Source: a virus (lineage: Duplodnaviria; Heunggongvirae; Uroviricota; Caudoviricetes). From it: a stretch of 64,000 nucleotides of DNA. Of this stretch, positions 10,081-63,244 are shown piece by piece. The stretch lies in IMG/VR virus record IMGVR_UViG_3300045988_149282, positions 33,636 to 97,635 of that record. One strand, 5' to 3'. Position 1 is the first letter of the stretch. Each line of letters starts with the position of its first letter. The notes under the pieces were generated by a model. It was given only the letters and a program-made list of their open reading frames with translations. It searched no databases and was not told where the DNA came from. Both the position numbers and the translations under genes were made by a program.

Positions 10081-10500
10081 ATGCTAAATTATCATGACAA
10101 TACGCGTTCTATGCAGACGATCCGCACCAATACTGCGGTTATCGACAGCTTTCCTATGCGTATTCACAACAGTGAAGACGCAGTAGAAGTGCGACGTATG
10201 TTGTGCCGTGAATCAGCTAACCGCCAGCACTTCATCGTCACTTTTAAGAGCGATGTGGCGCGTGCCGAAAAGATCTCTAATTCTACGTCACTGGTTAAAC
10301 CGTTGGCCGAGGTTGTCACTAACGGTAAACGAACCTCTTTTGTTTTAGATGTTGCTGAACAATATCCTGACTTGAAGTGTTTAGATCGTGATATTTCTTC
10401 ACGAATCAAACAAGTTGTAGAGTCTTTTATGAAGAAATTCTGTAAAATCGATGATATGGAACCATCAACGGCACAGAATACTTCATGGCACCATCTCTAA
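10081..10500 (+). CDS. hypothetical protein (cargo cassette gene 1)
   Basis: 139 aa ORF, no recognisable motif; overlaps next gene by 16 nt. Confidence 0.4.
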   Translation: MLNYHDNTRSMQTIRTNTAVIDSFPMRIHNSEDAVEVRRMLCRESANRQHFIVTFKSDVARAEKISNSTSLVKPLAEVVTNGKRTSFVLDVAEQYPDLKCLDRDISSRIKQVVESFMKKFCKIDDMEPSTAQNTSWHHL

Positions 10501-58890: not shown

Positions 58891-59473
58891 TAGATAAGTA
58901 CAAACTATTCATAAAGTGAATTGTAAGTGCTAAGATCTGATAGTTTCCAGTCGTAGACTGGAGACTCGACCTGATGGGTGGGGGTAAGCGTCACTGGCGT
59001 CAGGTTTAAAAAAGCTCACTACCAGCGTAGAACTGGTGCCGTTTAGGTGTCGGGGAAGGGGGAACCAAAGTGAGCAGAGACAAGGGTCACTTTATGATTG
59101 TCGAGTCTGGGGTGTTTCGAGAGGTTGAATCCAGTACTCCCCTTCATAAAGTGTGGGAAGATCTCGGTTCTGGGGTGCTGTCATCCATAACTTCCCAAGT
59201 CTAAGCTGGCAGTAGACTTAGACCATAACTTTTCAGGTTATGAAACGACCAGGTTGGTGAGAGATTTTTATACTCACCTCCCTGGGAGAGTATTACCTGA
59301 AAAGACAACCTCTCACTTCGTTCGAGGTGAACTTCACTCACTTCGTTCGTTCAGTTCAGGTTTATAAAAACCTGTTCTGGGAAGTAATTTGTTTATTTTA
59401 ATAATTATTAACACGCACGCGTGTGCGCACGCGCGAGGAAAAAATCGGCGCGGCGCTTGATTCAGGAGTTTAT

Positions 59474-60064: not shown

Positions 60065-60212
60065 TAAGTAAGTGTTTACCTATCATTTCAAATCATGTAT
60101 CTTATCGGCGTCAGGATGACAATGTGTTGGTAAGACACAGTTCCAGGATGGAACGAGAAAGGCGGCTGGCAATCGCCAGCCGCAACTCTTTCTGACACTG
60201 GATGGAGTCCAC

Positions 60213-60707
60213 ATGGCACGTCAAACCTATTTCACTTCTGTAACTAAACGTCCTCGTTCTTTACGTCAAATTTTGGCCGAATTATTTAGCGGTCGTGTTA
60301 TGTCACGTCTTGATGAACTAGAGACTACCGTTCGGTTGCTGAATGAACGTTTAGATAATCAAGCGTCAGTTGTTGCGAACGTGGGGGCGATTGTTGCCTC
60401 TGGTTCTTCACGCGAAGCGAAAAATGCACGGCCTTTAGTGAAGGAGAAAAACAACAAGGACAGTTCGAATGGAAAATTTTCAAAGAAAGAGGCTGAAACC
60501 AATGGCCTACGTTCTCATTATAGTTTCACTGGCGACGGTAGCCGTTCCAGCCGGTCAGAGCCTTTTGATGCCGGATTCATCCATCACCACACCTTCGTCG
60601 ACGACAATTACCACCACTCCAGTGGAGCGTCCTGTCACTCTGGATGGGATGGCGGTGGATGCGATACCTCAACTTCATCCAGTTACTCAGGATCATGCTG
60701 TGACTAA
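60213..60707 (+). CDS. hypothetical protein with Ser/His/Cys-rich C-terminus
   Basis: 164 aa ORF with RBS; C-terminal low-complexity region containing HHH and CxxxxxxC patterns. Confidence 0.35.
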   Translation: MARQTYFTSVTKRPRSLRQILAELFSGRVMSRLDELETTVRLLNERLDNQASVVANVGAIVASGSSREAKNARPLVKEKNNKDSSNGKFSKKEAETNGLRSHYSFTGDGSRSSRSEPFDAGFIHHHTFVDDNYHHSSGASCHSGWDGGGCDTSTSSSYSGSCCD

Positions 60708-60716
60708 GGCGGTTGT

Positions 60717-60905
60717 ATGAACTGGTTTTCAAATCACTTTGGAAAAATTTGGCTGGCAATTCTTGCCCTCATGGCCGCCGGTTGGGTATCGAACATTATA
60801 AAACTTGTTTGCTCTGGCGATCTCCAGTTTCAGGCTGGCATGACCTTGGCTCGTGTAGTTGGGATTTTTATTTTTCCAGTCGGTTCGGTACTTGGTTATT
60901 TCTGA
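60717..60905 (+). CDS. small membrane protein
   Basis: 62 aa with two hydrophobic segments. Confidence 0.3.
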   Translation: MNWFSNHFGKIWLAILALMAAGWVSNIIKLVCSGDLQFQAGMTLARVVGIFIFPVGSVLGYF

Positions 60906-60998
60906 CGGTTGTTAGTGCATATGCATTGACCGTCTTTGCGTAAGCAATTTATTTAACTAGAAAACAACTTGTTTTGACAAATAACAAAAGGAAAACAC

Positions 60999-61424
60999 AT
61001 GTTAGGTTTCTTCAAAAAGAAAACTCGTAAAGCAGTTATCGAAGTCAAAAAAATGGAGAACCGTGATGCGGTTGAGGCCACCGTGTGGGGCGCGTACATG
61101 ATCTCCTATGCCGACGGCACATGTGACGCAAAAGAAATTGCCATTCTTGAGAAGACAATTGCAGCTCTGCCTGCGTTTTCTCCGTTTGCTGGTGAAATTG
61201 CCCAAATGAGCGCCAATATCCGTGCTCGTTACGAAGCGTCCCCTCGTTCTGCTAATGCACAGGCTATTCGTGAGCTGTCTGATATTGCGGGTACTCCAGA
61301 GGCGGTCGATGTTCTGTGTCTGTGCCTTGATATTGCCGATCAGGATGGCATTGGTGAACAAGAAGAGCAGGCACTGAAAAAGATCGCCCAGGCGCTTCAG
61401 TTGTCACTGGATGCTTATCTCTAA
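60999..61424 (+). CDS. TerB-like domain protein
   Basis: 141 aa; helical, ISYADGTCDAKEIAILEK and LDIADQDGIGEQEEQAL resemble the two metal-binding repeats of TerB-family proteins. Confidence 0.4.
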   Translation: MLGFFKKKTRKAVIEVKKMENRDAVEATVWGAYMISYADGTCDAKEIAILEKTIAALPAFSPFAGEIAQMSANIRARYEASPRSANAQAIRELSDIAGTPEAVDVLCLCLDIADQDGIGEQEEQALKKIAQALQLSLDAYL

Positions 61425-61582
61425 TGCTTGAGAGATTCCGGCTTGTGACCGTCATTGCTCTTCTGGTGATGGCGGTGTTGGTGGATTTTACGGGAAAGAT
61501 GATGTCTGTCATTTCTGATGGCCTCCTCATTGGTTTGGCGATCTACTTCGCTTATCCGCTAGTCCGTAAAGCAACGTGTTAA
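61424..61582 (+). CDS. small membrane protein
   Basis: 52 aa, not in ORF track; start overlaps upstream stop (TAATG); hydrophobic; followed by terminator hairpin. Confidence 0.25.
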   Translation: MLERFRLVTVIALLVMAVLVDFTGKMMSVISDGLLIGLAIYFAYPLVRKATC

Positions 61583-61584
61583 TG

Positions 61585-61613
61585 ACAAGGGCCAAATGGC
61601 CCTTGTGTTTCGT
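61585..61613 (+). terminator. rho-independent terminator
   Basis: acaagggcc aaat ggcccttgt hairpin followed by GTTTCGTT. Confidence 0.55.
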
Positions 61614-61721
61614 TGACCGAAATAGAGAGTTTGCACCTTTACGTTTAGCTTGCTCCCCTTTTATGCCACATCACAATAAAGCCAATAAGAAAACAACTTG
61701 TTTAAGCATTAGGAAAAACAC

Positions 61722-62291
61722 ATGTGCAAGAAATGCAAAGCGATAGCTGATGAACAAAACGCCTTATTCGAAGAAATGGATGCTAATGAACTGGTCAAAA
61801 TGTTAGCCATTCTTCGAGGAATAGAAGACGTTTCCATATTTGAGAGAGTGGTTACAGCACTTAATTTTGAGTCCACCTTTGAAGAGCCAACTCAGGTTGT
61901 AGCTTTAGCACATCATTTCGGTGTTCATTATCTTGCTGAAAAAGAGCGCGCTGATAAGTTGCAGGCGACTTTGGATATGGTGAGCGAGACTCAACGAACT
62001 GATGACACTAACAAGAGTGAGGCGATTATTGCCAGCAAAGATCGTGAAATTGCTGGGCTTAAATCCTCTCTAACGATGTTGATGTCTGCGTTCAATCTTA
62101 TGTCTTCTCAGGCGGGTTATAAAATGCCATCACTAAACAGCGATGATCCGATGGCCGTTCGTCAGCTTTTGGGAGCAATGGCCGACCAACTCGACGACAC
62201 AAAGAGTCGCCTTGAAGACATGATGCGTGAGTTAAGCCATCGACATAACCTCGCAACACAACCACACAAAGTCTTTCAAAGCTCTAATTGA
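61722..62291 (+). CDS. hypothetical protein
   Basis: 189 aa ORF behind AAACAAcTTGTTT motif and consensus start context. Confidence 0.4.
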   Translation: MCKKCKAIADEQNALFEEMDANELVKMLAILRGIEDVSIFERVVTALNFESTFEEPTQVVALAHHFGVHYLAEKERADKLQATLDMVSETQRTDDTNKSEAIIASKDREIAGLKSSLTMLMSAFNLMSSQAGYKMPSLNSDDPMAVRQLLGAMADQLDDTKSRLEDMMRELSHRHNLATQPHKVFQSSN

Positions 62292-62345: not shown

Positions 62346-62627
62346 ATGGCATACGGTACAGGGATTTACAACAATAAAGGAATTAACGTTACTGGCTTCC
62401 TTACACCTATTTTTTTTCTTGATCGATTTACGGCGTCATCAGGCTCTAAGACGTACTCTAATCCGCCACCGGGTAAATCACTACATGCCGTGTGGTCATT
62501 AATGCCTCTTAACAACGACAACTACATCAATTTACCTGTTCCAAATGTTACTATTAATGGAAATACGGTTAGTTGGTCAAATTTATATACGGGGCTTGGT
62601 TCTTACATATACACATACTGGGGATAA
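62346..62627 (+). CDS. hypothetical protein (AT-rich)
   Basis: 93 aa ORF, Asn/Tyr/Gly-rich, AT-rich codon usage. Confidence 0.3.
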   Translation: MAYGTGIYNNKGINVTGFLTPIFFLDRFTASSGSKTYSNPPPGKSLHAVWSLMPLNNDNYINLPVPNVTINGNTVSWSNLYTGLGSYIYTYWG

Positions 62628-62629
62628 TT

Positions 62630-63244
62630 ATGTTCGGGATGTCAATTACTCAATCAGATGGAAGTTTGTGGATGAGTCCAGAATTTACTCCGCAAAATCT
62701 GATTAATAAAGGGACAATGTCTGCATCTAAAGGTTCTGTTTTTAAAACATCAATCCCATCAAACAAATCATGCTTTTTCTTCATAAAAAGCAGTAATAAG
62801 GCGAACATGATGTTTATTCATGAACATAGTAACGGATACAATGCTCTCAGATTGCATCAGGTAAATGGTAGCCCCGGAACAATAACAGTTTATGCTTTTT
62901 CTGATATGGTGTTACCACATTCTGGCTATGGCATTGCCATGTATAACAGCGCAGGCGCAATGGTGTATCACGGTGAGATGATGCCCCTTGATGCAAAACT
63001 TATCACTATTACTGACCCACAATTTACAATAGATATGGGGTATCCGTGCGCAGTAATGCCTGCTATGGTTGGGGTTTATAACTATAGACGAACCGATTAC
63101 GACAGACCTGTCTATGTAACTATGACCGGTGCAACTGGAAACCAAGTATATAACGGTCAATGGTATTCCGGTAATGTCACATGGGATATTAAGAAGATTT
63201 ATACAAACAAAATCCTGGTTATAAATACCTCAAAGTATGATTAG
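62630..63244 (+). CDS. hypothetical protein (AT-rich, beta-rich)
   Basis: Start at ATG 62630 immediately after upstream stop; Tyr/Asn/Gly/Thr-rich. Confidence 0.35.
   Translation: MFGMSITQSDGSLWMSPEFTPQNLINKGTMSASKGSVFKTSIPSNKSCFFFIKSSNKANMMFIHEHSNGYNALRLHQVNGSPGTITVYAFSDMVLPHSGYGIAMYNSAGAMVYHGEMMPLDAKLITITDPQFTIDMGYPCAVMPAMVGVYNYRRTDYDRPVYVTMTGATGNQVYNGQWYSGNVTWDIKKIYTNKILVINTSKYD

What the first reader, a model, noticed from the sequence alone, without database searches (positions are those of the whole stretch)
60213..61613. TerB-like protein flanked by small membrane proteins and a Ser/His/Cys-rich protein
TerB domains are associated with membrane stress and phage-defence-linked operons. 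Here a TerB-like gene (60999-61424) sits with two small membrane proteins (60717-60905, 61424-61582) and a low-complexity metal-binding-like protein (60213-60707), ending at a terminator. The unit could be a stress or exclusion module.
Basis: inference. Interest (0 to 1): 0.45.

Follow-up and report, generated by a model that had tools for sequence, protein, structure and literature searches.

The report
Phage P1-type tciA–tciB (TerB) cassette
The TerB-like gene is real, but it and the small membrane-protein gene after it form the already-annotated, functionally untested tciA–tciB accessory cassette of phage P1 sitting in a swappable slot of a common E. coli plasmid-phage, while the two upstream genes belong to the phage backbone.

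Summary
All four ORFs and the terminator exist as described, and TerB homology is confirmed (Pfam above threshold; profile hit to solved TerB 2JXU, E=2.7e-16; confident all-helical model).

The window is an SSU5/Cyrano-type E. coli phage-plasmid. In Cyrano, 60999-61424 and 61424-61582 are already annotated "P1 TciA-like" and "P1 TciB-like" (DUF3927). This pair is the only conserved unit. A two-helix TciB gene abuts TerB in 9 of 11 unrelated phages and in 15 of 15 prophage loci.

Phage SSU5 has the same flanking genes but an antirepressor gene in this slot, so the two upstream genes are backbone and not part of a module. The "Ser/His/Cys-rich" tail is not under purifying selection in its own frame. 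A conserved, mostly unannotated +1-frame ORF (60469-60720, 83 aa, one TM helix) is.

There is no TerC or TerD and no match to defence-system models. In published RNA-seq of a Cyrano lysogen the genes sit at background, which argues against a lysogen-protecting module.

Most likely (inferred): TciA is a metal-binding cytoplasmic protein docked on the TciB membrane hairpin, acting on membrane or ion state during phage growth. Known kind; low interest.

The parts
60162..60183 (.). GC-rich hairpin (9 bp, 8 GC), terminator-like on both strands. It closes the RNase H gene and precedes the 164-aa ORF.
60213..60707 (+). 164-aa ORF (phrog_10411, unknown function), a backbone gene of SSU5-like phage-plasmids. 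Codons 1-85 (coiled-coil-like) are under purifying selection. The Ser/His/Cys-rich tail (codons 87-164) is not, although the frame is kept open.
60469..60720 (+). Embedded +1-frame ORF, 83 aa: basic N-terminus, one TM helix, Thr/Ser/Pro-rich tail. It has a conserved ATG with AAGGA 8 nt upstream, and its stop overlaps the next gene's start (ATGA). Not annotated in Cyrano, SSU5 or pJN2-26; called as a gene in a Cronobacter copy.
60717..60905 (+). 62-aa two-TM membrane protein (phrog_6006, unknown function), a backbone gene. Its homologues elsewhere stand alone without TerB.
60884..61635 (+). Variable slot, about 750 bp. Nucleotide homology to SSU5 stops at 60883 and resumes at 61636. Here the slot holds motif + tciA + tciB + terminator; in SSU5 it holds an antirepressor gene.
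60959..60974 (+). Palindromic motif AGAAAACAACTTGTTT, 25 nt upstream of the tciA ATG. It is one of at least 7 copies in the window, each just upstream of a gene start, and is probably a promoter or operator element.
60999..61424 (+). tciA: 141-aa TerB-family protein with no hydrophobic (transmembrane-length) segment, so taken as cytoplasmic. It has a cationic amphipathic N-terminal helix (net +5 over residues 1-20) and invariant acidic residues D23, D39, E46, D95, E122.
61424..61582 (+). tciB: 52-aa DUF3927 two-helix membrane hairpin. Its start overlaps the tciA stop (TAATG). Conserved core: R6, D22-F23, S29, D32-G33, P45, K49.
61585..61606 (+). Intrinsic terminator hairpin closing the tciAB cassette.
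61688..61703 (+). Second, identical 16-nt copy of the palindromic motif, upstream of the next backbone gene (61722-62291, phrog_5508). Together with 60959-60974 it brackets the cassette.

Best explanation
The core of the finding is the tciA-tciB cassette first named in phage P1. It is a roughly 750-bp self-contained cargo unit (upstream palindromic regulatory motif, two translationally coupled genes, terminator). It sits in a replaceable slot of an SSU5/Cyrano-type E. coli phage-plasmid. The two upstream genes are family-specific backbone genes and not part of the unit.

Shown: TciA is a TerB-fold protein with no transmembrane segment (so taken as cytoplasmic) and a preserved set of acidic residues. 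TciB is a two-helix inner-membrane hairpin. The pair is conserved across temperate and strictly lytic phages. It is not expressed above background in a lysogen of the near-identical phage Cyrano.

Inferred mechanism: TciA docks on the cytoplasmic face of the membrane through its cationic amphipathic N-terminal helix and through TciB. In this role TciB would replace the large membrane protein TerC that partners canonical TerB. The complex would sense or buffer a divalent-cation or membrane-stress signal so that the infected cell's envelope stays functional during phage development. It would be an auxiliary, non-essential function, not tellurite resistance as such.

Confidence in the identity and in the two-gene unit is about 0.95. 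Confidence in the membrane-complex mechanism is about 0.35.
For: Identity: Pfam TerB and DUF3927 both score above their gathering thresholds. PHROGs assigns 'tellurite resistance' and 'TciB-like'. TciA is 78.7% identical to P1 TciA. Cyrano annotates the same genes as P1 TciA-like and TciB-like. The profile hit to TerB 2JXU has E=2.7e-16. The AF2 model has pLDDT 88.6 and six helices.

Two-gene unit: a two-TM ORF follows TerB in 9 of 11 unrelated phages, and 8 of these pass the DUF3927 threshold. The same arrangement holds in 15 of 15 bacterial loci, and all 10 flanking proteins sampled from seven of them matched phage protein families (holin, endolysin, Q, CI-like repressor). Stop and start overlap in 18 of 22 pairs.

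Cargo status: SSU5 carries an antirepressor in the same slot, with homology breakpoints at 60883 and 61636. Identical 16-nt motif copies bracket the cassette.

Membrane-partner idea: the literature reports TerB as an interaction partner of the membrane protein TerC. Vibrio phage MS02, which lacks tciB, has a TerC-family gene next to its TerB. The TciA N-terminus has net charge +5 and the highest hydrophobic moment in the protein. The invariant columns of the alignment are mostly acidic.

Lytic-cycle rather than lysogen role: the pair occurs in N4-like and jumbo lytic phages. In P1 it lies in the C1-controlled ban region. In this window it shares its motif with helicase, primase and RNR genes. 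Its transcripts are at background in the Cyrano lysogen.
Against: No experiment in the searchable literature links TciA or TciB to any phenotype. P1 tciA, tciB and tciC are non-essential by CRISPRi. No physical TciA-TciB interaction has been shown or modelled here. The only natural fusion found (P0101) looks like a single-base frameshift on one contig, and an exhaustive search found no other fusions. TciB diverges much faster than TciA (29-61% against 79-92% identity among enterobacterial copies), which is unusual for a tight obligate partner. Metal binding is inferred only from conserved acidic residues. Foldseek's best structural match is weak by E-value (2H5N, E=0.25, probability 0.99, TM 0.53-0.56). 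The motif-bearing genes do not share one expression profile (parA is on in the lysogen), so the timing inference from the motif is soft. In lambdoid prophages the pair sits in the late region next to the lysis genes, which would also fit a lysis-related role.
Confidence: 0.6

Rival explanations
1. All four (or five) genes from 60213 to 61582 form one operon-like stress or superinfection-exclusion module that protects the lysogen.
For: The gene order is syntenic in all 35 related viral contigs and in Klebsiella and Cronobacter relatives. No terminator lies between 60905 and 60999. CYRAN_83-87 share a small transient rise in condition B1 that CYRAN_82 and CYRAN_88 lack. Three of the products are small membrane proteins, as many exclusion proteins are.
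Against: SSU5 keeps the upstream genes but swaps tciAB for an antirepressor. P1, lambdoid, N4-like and jumbo phages carry tciAB without the upstream genes. Homologues of the 62-aa protein stand alone elsewhere. There are no PADLOC matches. Transcripts are at or below the prophage background in the lysogen.
Confidence: 0.1
2. The pair is a tellurite or pore-forming-colicin resistance determinant, as its database names say.
For: TciA is homologous to TerB of the ter operon. The database names are 'tellurite/colicin resistance protein'.
Against: The name was given by homology only (P1 annotation note). TerC and TerD are absent from the window, while TerC-TerD is reported as the minimal functional unit. 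The authors of phage PMBT3 reached the same doubt for their lone terB. The genes are silent in the lysogen.
Confidence: 0.05
3. TciB is a holin-like or antiholin-like membrane protein, and TciA is its cytoplasmic regulator. Together they tune lysis timing or cell division.
For: TciB is a two-TM protein with basic residues at both ends, which I read as N-in/C-in by the positive-inside rule, like class II holins (the holin class is from my own knowledge). In lambdoid prophages the pair lies between Q and the holin and endolysin genes. The P1 name includes 'inhibition of cell division'.
Against: In P1, N4-like phages, LIET2 and this phage the pair lies among early or DNA-metabolism genes, far from the lysis genes. 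Cyrano has its own holin, endolysin and spanin genes elsewhere. The P1 genes are non-essential.
Confidence: 0.1
4. TciAB is a counter-defence: a phage TerB decoy or modulator that blinds TerB-containing 'membrane surveillance' defence systems such as Shango or Bunzi, or other abortive-infection sensors of membrane state.
For: TerB domains occur in the Shango and Bunzi defence systems and are proposed to monitor the membrane. The pair is carried by lytic as well as temperate phages and is not expressed in lysogeny, as expected for an infection-phase function.
Against: This is purely circumstantial. TciA has no similarity to PADLOC models of those systems at E<=1, and no literature link was found.
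Confidence: 0.08

Closest known systems
Phage P1 tciA-tciB-tciC (Lobocka et al. 2004 P1 genome annotation; GenBank AF234172)
   Same: TciA is 78.7% identical. It is followed by a DUF3927 two-TM protein whose start overlaps the tciA stop. Both sit in a phage-plasmid, and both are functionally uncharacterised and named by homology only.
   Different: There is no tciC-like third small gene, because the terminator follows tciB directly. TciB is only about 38% identical. The genomic setting and regulation differ: P1 has the pair in the C1-controlled ban region among tRNA genes, whereas here it lies behind a family-specific palindromic motif.
TerB of the terZABCDE tellurite-resistance operon (e.g. 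K. pneumoniae KP-TerB, PDB 2JXU)
   Same: Same Pfam family, profile-level homology over nearly the full length, similar size, and an all-helical model. Canonical TerB is reported to associate with the membrane and with TerC.
   Different: There are no terZ, terA, terC, terD or terE genes. The partner is instead a 52-aa hairpin. The gene is phage-borne and single-sequence similarity is low (no phmmer hit to PDB).
TerB-domain anti-phage systems Shango and Bunzi (Millman et al. 2022)
   Same: They contain a TerB domain and have a proposed link to the membrane.
   Different: There is no match to PADLOC models and no adjacent helicase or ATPase genes. The pair is encoded by phages, including lytic ones, not by defence islands.
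Mobile regulatory cassettes of T4-type phages (promoter-early stem-loops that flank shuffled ORFs; recalled from memory, not checked here)
   Same: A short repeated regulatory sequence with a terminator brackets an exchangeable accessory gene unit. Identical 16-nt copies flank tciAB, and the SSU5 slot is also flanked by copies.
   Different: The motif sequence and the phage family are different. Recombination at the motif is inferred, not shown.

Membership tests
TerB family (Pfam PF05099) | Scores above the curated Pfam gathering threshold | tested here: met
   31.5 bits against a cut-off of 24.4, E=2.4e-7, residues 33-136
TerB family (Pfam PF05099) | Homology to an experimentally solved TerB | tested here: met
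   The profile of 12 phage TerB sequences hits 2JXU with E=2.7e-16 over query positions 14-138. The single sequence alone finds nothing.
TerB family (Pfam PF05099) | Compact all-helical fold of TerB type | tested here: inconclusive
   The AF2 model has six helices and pLDDT 88.6. The only structural match with high probability is 2H5N (probability 0.99, TM 0.53-0.56, E=0.25). I recall 2H5N being classed as TerB-like, but did not verify that. The NMR entry 2JXU was not retrieved by Foldseek.
TerB family (Pfam PF05099) | Conserved acidic residues in two ADG...E half-motifs (proposed metal site) | tested here: met
   D23, D39, G40, E46, D95 and E122 are invariant across 12 phage TerBs down to 30% identity. 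Metal binding itself was not tested.
ter operon (terZABCDE) tellurite-resistance system | TerC and TerD-family genes encoded with TerB | tested here: not met
Neighbouring genes have other identities.
ter operon (terZABCDE) tellurite-resistance system | Confers tellurite, colicin or phage resistance | not testable with these tools
   This needs MIC and plating assays.
P1-type tciAB(C) cassette | TerB gene immediately followed by a DUF3927 two-TM gene with overlapping or abutting stop and start | tested here: met
   DUF3927 scores 45.1 bits against a cut-off of 25. There is a TAATG overlap at 61424. The same junction type occurs in 18 of 22 other pairs.
P1-type tciAB(C) cassette | Third small single-TM gene (tciC) after tciB | tested here: not met
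   The terminator starts 3 nt after the tciB stop, and there is no ORF. tciC is also absent from several other carriers.
Known anti-phage defence systems (PADLOC-DB v2) | Any of the proteins matches a defence-system model | tested here: not met
   No family at E<=1 for the four proteins or for the embedded ORF.
Prophage 'moron' (autonomously expressed in the lysogen) | Transcribed well above the prophage background during lysogeny | tested here: not met
   Published RNA-seq of the 98.6%-identical phage Cyrano gives CYRAN_85 and CYRAN_86 values of 7.0 and 5.0, against a median of 9.8 and a cut-off of 49. They are not in the authors' list of 13. Only five conditions were sampled.
Prophage 'moron' (autonomously expressed in the lysogen) | Own promoter and terminator, variable presence among related phages | tested here: inconclusive
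   The terminator and variable presence are met. No sigma-70-like promoter was found upstream. A family-specific palindromic motif is present, but its role is unknown.
Rz/Rz1-type embedded gene pair (considered for 60213-60720) | Outer gene with an N-terminal TM helix, and an embedded +1 gene encoding a lipoprotein with a lipobox | tested here: not met
   The outer protein has no hydrophobic segment. The embedded ORF has a TM helix but no conserved Cys or lipobox.

The most novel reading that the evidence does not exclude
TciA-TciB is a minimal, self-sufficient TerB machine in which a 52-aa membrane hairpin replaces TerC. Phages of many lifestyles would deploy it during infection to reset the host's membrane or divalent-cation state, or to blind TerB-type 'membrane surveillance' immunity (Shango, Bunzi). 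That would make it a widespread, unrecognised host-takeover or counter-defence module, and a tractable two-protein entry point into the long-unsolved biochemistry of TerB.
Probability: 0.1. Interest if true: 0.55.

Novelty: already known. Interest (0 to 1): 0.2.

Why it matters
As it stands, this is a correct rediscovery of an annotated gene pair in a common plasmid-phage: the same cassette is found in 209 of 5,426 complete E. coli genomes.

Its modest value is threefold. First, it narrows the question. The unit to study is two genes, not four; it is probably an infection-phase function rather than a lysogen-protecting one; and tellurite resistance is unlikely without TerC and TerD. Second, the tciA-tciB pair may be the simplest available system for finding out what a TerB domain does, which is still unknown about 30 years after the ter operon was described. 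Third, the analysis exposed an unannotated overlapping gene and a family-wide regulatory palindrome that improve the annotation of SSU5-like phage-plasmids.

Tried and rejected
- A single-sequence search of PDB with TciA found only noise. A profile was needed.
- Foldseek against PDB did not retrieve 2JXU and gave only one meaningful hit, at a weak E-value.
The closer alignment A2 worked.
- The close-relative scan of viral contigs with TciB returned only the same phage family, so it could not test linkage. Distant phage records had to be fetched one by one.
- The exhaustive representative search with the 52-aa TciB gave only 12 significant hits and no TerB fusions. The one natural fusion, P0101, looks like a one-base frameshift, so I rejected it as Rosetta-stone evidence.
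- I considered that the 164-aa ORF might simply be mis-framed. I rejected that because the long frame stays open far more often than synonymous recoding of the +1 ORF allows: 3-6% in the naive test, and 5-29% per lineage in the stricter one.
- I considered an Rz/Rz1-like spanin pair and rejected it: there is no lipobox and no TM helix in the outer protein.
- I considered the motif as a simple 'silent in lysogeny' operator. The Cyrano data do not support one shared profile, because parA is expressed.
- NCBIfam gave nothing useful.
- Literature searches for tciA/tciB, DUF3927 and phage TerB found annotation-level mentions only.
Full report
**What is there.** A hairpin terminator follows at 61585-61606, with a fold of -21.6 kcal/mol and z=-5.2 against shuffles. 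The window belongs to an SSU5-like E. coli phage-plasmid. The 3-kb region is 98.8% identical to Escherichia phage CMS-2020a and 98.6% identical to phage Cyrano of E. coli LF82. The 671-bp core occurs in 209 of 5,426 complete E. coli genomes, and 211 of the 213 places are on plasmids, of about 106-120 kb in nearly all the listed records.

**TerB homology is real.** The 141-aa protein scores above Pfam's gathering threshold for TerB (31.5 against 24.4 bits). It matches PHROG 632 'tellurite resistance' at E=4.8e-63. A profile of 12 diverse phage homologues hits the solved K. pneumoniae TerB (2JXU) at E=2.7e-16 over nearly the full length. An AlphaFold2 model built on 44 homologues is confident (pLDDT 88.6, pTM 0.81) and consists of six helices. 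Foldseek's only high-probability structural match is 2H5N (probability 0.99, TM about 0.55, but E=0.25), so the fold evidence is supportive rather than decisive.

Across phage TerBs down to 30% identity, the invariant positions are mainly acidic: D23, D39, E46, D95 and E122, in two ADG...E half-motifs. The first 20 residues form a cationic amphipathic helix. They carry net charge +5 while the rest of the protein carries -10, and they have the highest hydrophobic moment in the protein.

**It is the known P1 tciA-tciB pair.** The protein is 78.7% identical to P1 TciA. The 52-aa protein is a DUF3927 family member (45.1 bits against a cut-off of 25) and matches PHROG 1470 'TciB-like'. Cyrano already annotates the two genes as 'P1 TciA-like' and 'P1 TciB-like', and RefSeq calls them 'tellurite/colicin resistance protein' and 'DUF3927 family protein'. 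The P1 names were given 'by homology'. I found no functional study. In a genome-wide CRISPRi screen, P1 tciA, tciB and tciC are non-essential (PMC10695390).

**The conserved unit is two genes, not four.** Outside the SSU5 family I examined 11 phage TerB loci.
- Nine have a two-TM ORF of 46-59 aa directly after TerB. They are P1, P7, the lambdoid phages Fostie and JLK-2012, the N4-like phages FSL SP-058 and SP-076, Pantoea LIET2, Pseudomonas phiK7B1 and the jumbo Erwinia phage ChrisDB.
- Eight of these nine pass the DUF3927 threshold.
- The two exceptions are PMBT3, which has TerB alone, and Vibrio phage MS02, which has a TerC-family gene next to TerB instead.
- In 15 of 15 loci from bacterial genomes, a TciB-like ORF abuts the TciA stop codon. 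All ten flanking proteins sampled from seven of these loci matched phage protein families, including holin, endolysin, Q antiterminator, CI-like repressor and a P2-type replication protein.
- Stop and start codons overlap in 18 of 22 pairs and lie within 3 nt in 21 of 22, which fits translational coupling.

None of these elements carries homologues of the 164-aa or 62-aa genes. Tblastn finds the 164-aa protein only in SSU5-like phages. It finds the 62-aa protein there and, as a stand-alone gene without TerB, in Aeromonas and Vibrio phages.

**The slot is exchangeable.** SSU5 itself has the same backbone order: Dam, RNase H, the 164-aa homologue, the 62-aa homologue, then a slot, then the 189-aa homologue and a methylase. 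In SSU5 the slot holds an antirepressor gene instead of tciAB. Nucleotide homology between the window and SSU5 ends at 60883 and resumes at 61636.

The cassette is bracketed by two identical 16-nt copies of AGAAAACAACTTGTTT, at 60959 and 61688. The SSU5 slot is likewise flanked by copies of this motif. The motif (core AAACAAnTTGTTT) gives 9 matches in the window at up to 2 mismatches, against 0.25 expected. Each copy lies about 17-45 nt upstream of a start codon. The genes involved are ParA-like, DnaB-like helicase, primase (weaker copy), a CobT-like protein, RNR small subunit, tciA, the 189-aa gene and others. I read it as a family-specific promoter or operator element, and possibly as a recombination linker for cassette exchange. 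Both readings are inferences.

**The 'Ser/His/Cys-rich protein'.** The 164-aa frame is conserved with in-frame indels down to 40% identity, but its two halves behave differently.
- Codons 1-85 show the normal substitution pattern (third position most variable), with dN/dS of about 0.19-0.27 in five comparisons, 0.48 in the closely related L009-SSU5 pair, and not computable in one pair where synonymous sites are saturated.
- Codons 87-164 show the annotated third position as the least variable, with dN/dS of 0.9-2.4 in six of seven comparisons.
- The +1 frame over the same DNA (60469-60720) gives dN/dS of 0.36-0.61 in those six comparisons.
- The seventh comparison is a close pair with few substitutions and goes the other way.

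The +1 ORF encodes 83 aa with a basic N-terminus, one TM helix and a Thr/Ser/Pro-rich tail. It has a conserved ATG preceded by AAGGA or GGAG. It ends in an ATGA overlap with the 62-aa gene. A gene caller called it in place of the long ORF in a Cronobacter copy.

On the other hand, the long frame stays open in every lineage examined (E. coli, Salmonella SSU5, two Klebsiella types and Cronobacter), with its stop at the same place in each. Random synonymous recoding of the +1 protein would keep the long frame open only 3-6% of the time. Under a stricter test that allows for shared ancestry, the figure is 5-29% per lineage.

My reading is a genuine dual-coding region, in which the amino-acid sequence of the +1 product is what selection preserves. 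The metal-binding look of the Ser/His/Cys tail should therefore not be taken at face value.

**What it probably does.** Tellurite resistance as such is unlikely. TerC and TerD are absent from the window, and they are reported as the minimal functional unit, with TerB described as an interaction partner of the membrane protein TerC. None of the proteins matches a PADLOC defence model.

Published RNA-seq of the LF82 lysogen of Cyrano gives normalised values of 8.3, 7.3, 7.0, 5.0 and 7.1 for CYRAN_83-87 in overnight LB. The prophage median is 9.8, the authors' cut-off for lysogen-expressed genes is 49, and the repressor scores 96. None of the five genes is among the 13 genes the authors list (PMC9928086). 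Values stay low in the other four conditions, apart from a shared small rise in condition B1.

Several other observations point the same way:
- The pair is present in strictly lytic phages.
- In P1 it lies in the C1-controlled ban region.
- Here it shares its upstream motif with replication genes.

Together these suggest an infection-phase accessory function rather than a lysogenic-conversion function.

The mechanism I consider most likely is inferred, at about 0.35. TciA would be held at the inner face of the membrane by its N-terminal helix and by TciB, which would be a small substitute for TerC. The acidic site would bind a divalent cation, so that the complex senses or buffers membrane or ion stress during phage development. 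Rival ideas (a four-gene exclusion module, true tellurite or colicin resistance, a lysis-timing role, a counter-defence decoy) are listed with their evidence.

One caveat for a tight-complex model is that TciB evolves much faster than TciA. Among enterobacterial copies TciB is 29-61% identical while TciA is 79-92% identical. Between the E. coli and Klebsiella phage-plasmids TciA is 92% identical, while its neighbours are 40-63% identical.

**Verdict.** The proposed four-gene module is not supported. The finding corresponds to an already annotated, functionally unstudied phage cassette in a very common plasmid-phage. Interest is low (0.2). It would be higher only if the pair turns out to be a minimal TerB machine or a counter-defence, which I put at about 0.1.

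Noticed in passing
window 58965-59380 (+), between the 84-aa gene and the RNase H gene: A stretch of about 420 nt is 88-93% identical across SSU5, two Klebsiella phage-plasmid types and a Cronobacter copy. That is far more conserved than the neighbouring protein genes, which are about 68-78% identical at the nucleotide level. It contains the 44-aa ORF annotated as CYRAN_81. In LF82 RNA-seq that locus is 12-fold above the prophage background and rises to log2 10.3 inside macrophages. No Rfam family matches. RNAalifold predicts 138 pairs, 5 of them with compensatory double changes and few broken pairs, although the single-sequence fold z-score is only -1.2. This is a candidate structured non-coding RNA next to a phage RNase H gene. 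Its role is unknown; a replication primer or a regulatory RNA are guesses.
   Followed up: partly
window 60469-60720 (+): An 83-aa ORF with one TM helix is embedded in the +1 frame of the 164-aa gene and is not annotated in Cyrano, SSU5 or pJN2-26. It is under purifying selection (dN/dS 0.36-0.61), while the overlapping tail of the annotated frame is not (0.9-2.4). It has its own Shine-Dalgarno and an ATGA overlap with the next gene. Both frames stay open in all five lineages examined.
   Followed up: yes
window 11357, 14287, 26894, 39302, 50740, 60960, 61689 (weaker copies near 10408, 15704, 63320): The palindromic motif taaGAAAACAAnTTGTTTaa recurs 17-45 nt upstream of start codons of ParA-like, DnaB-like helicase, primase, CobT-like, RNR small subunit, tciA and other genes. 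There are 9 matches against 0.25 expected. It is conserved at the corresponding places in SSU5 and Klebsiella relatives. The genes behind it do not share one expression profile in the Cyrano lysogen.
   Followed up: partly
window 60959-60974 and 61688-61703; L049 (SSU5) 3272 and 4244: Identical 16-nt motif copies bracket the tciAB cassette, and the equivalent slot in SSU5, which holds an antirepressor, is bracketed in the same way. This suggests cassette exchange by recombination between motif copies.
   Followed up: partly
L045 (Vibrio phage vB_VpaP-MS02) 375-1923: This phage has a TerC/Alx-family membrane protein gene directly upstream of its TerB gene and no TciB-like gene after it. It is a natural case of a phage TerB paired with TerC instead of the small hairpin.
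   Followed up: no
L003 (P1), L043 (P7), L005 (JLK-2012), L041 (ChrisDB), L042 (phiK7B1): In five unrelated phages the tciAB pair lies within a few hundred bases of tRNA genes. In this window the tRNA cluster (21229-21856) is about 40 kb away. This may only reflect shared accessory-gene hot spots.
   Followed up: no
window 60999-61424 against L002 (Klebsiella phage pJN2-26) and L069 (Cronobacter): TciA is 91-92% identical between the E. coli, Klebsiella and Cronobacter phage-plasmids. In the Klebsiella copy the flanking genes are only 40-63% identical, and TciB is 61-62% identical in both. This means either unusually strong constraint on TciA or recent exchange of the gene.
   Followed up: no
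protein P0101 (196 aa, one contig): A P1-type TciA is fused in frame to TciB (Pfam TerB + DUF3927). The junction sequence looks like a one-base frameshift at the overlapping stop and start, so it is probably an error or a recent mutation rather than evidence of a functional fusion.
   Followed up: partly
window 62346-63244 (+): Just downstream lie two more accessory-type genes, matching PHROG 557 'outer membrane protein' (93 aa) and PHROG 425 'membrane associated protein'. The second is listed as a 223-aa TTG-start ORF that overlaps the first, whereas Cyrano annotates it as a shorter, non-overlapping gene of 201 aa. This part of the genome is rich in small envelope-directed proteins of unknown role.
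   Followed up: no
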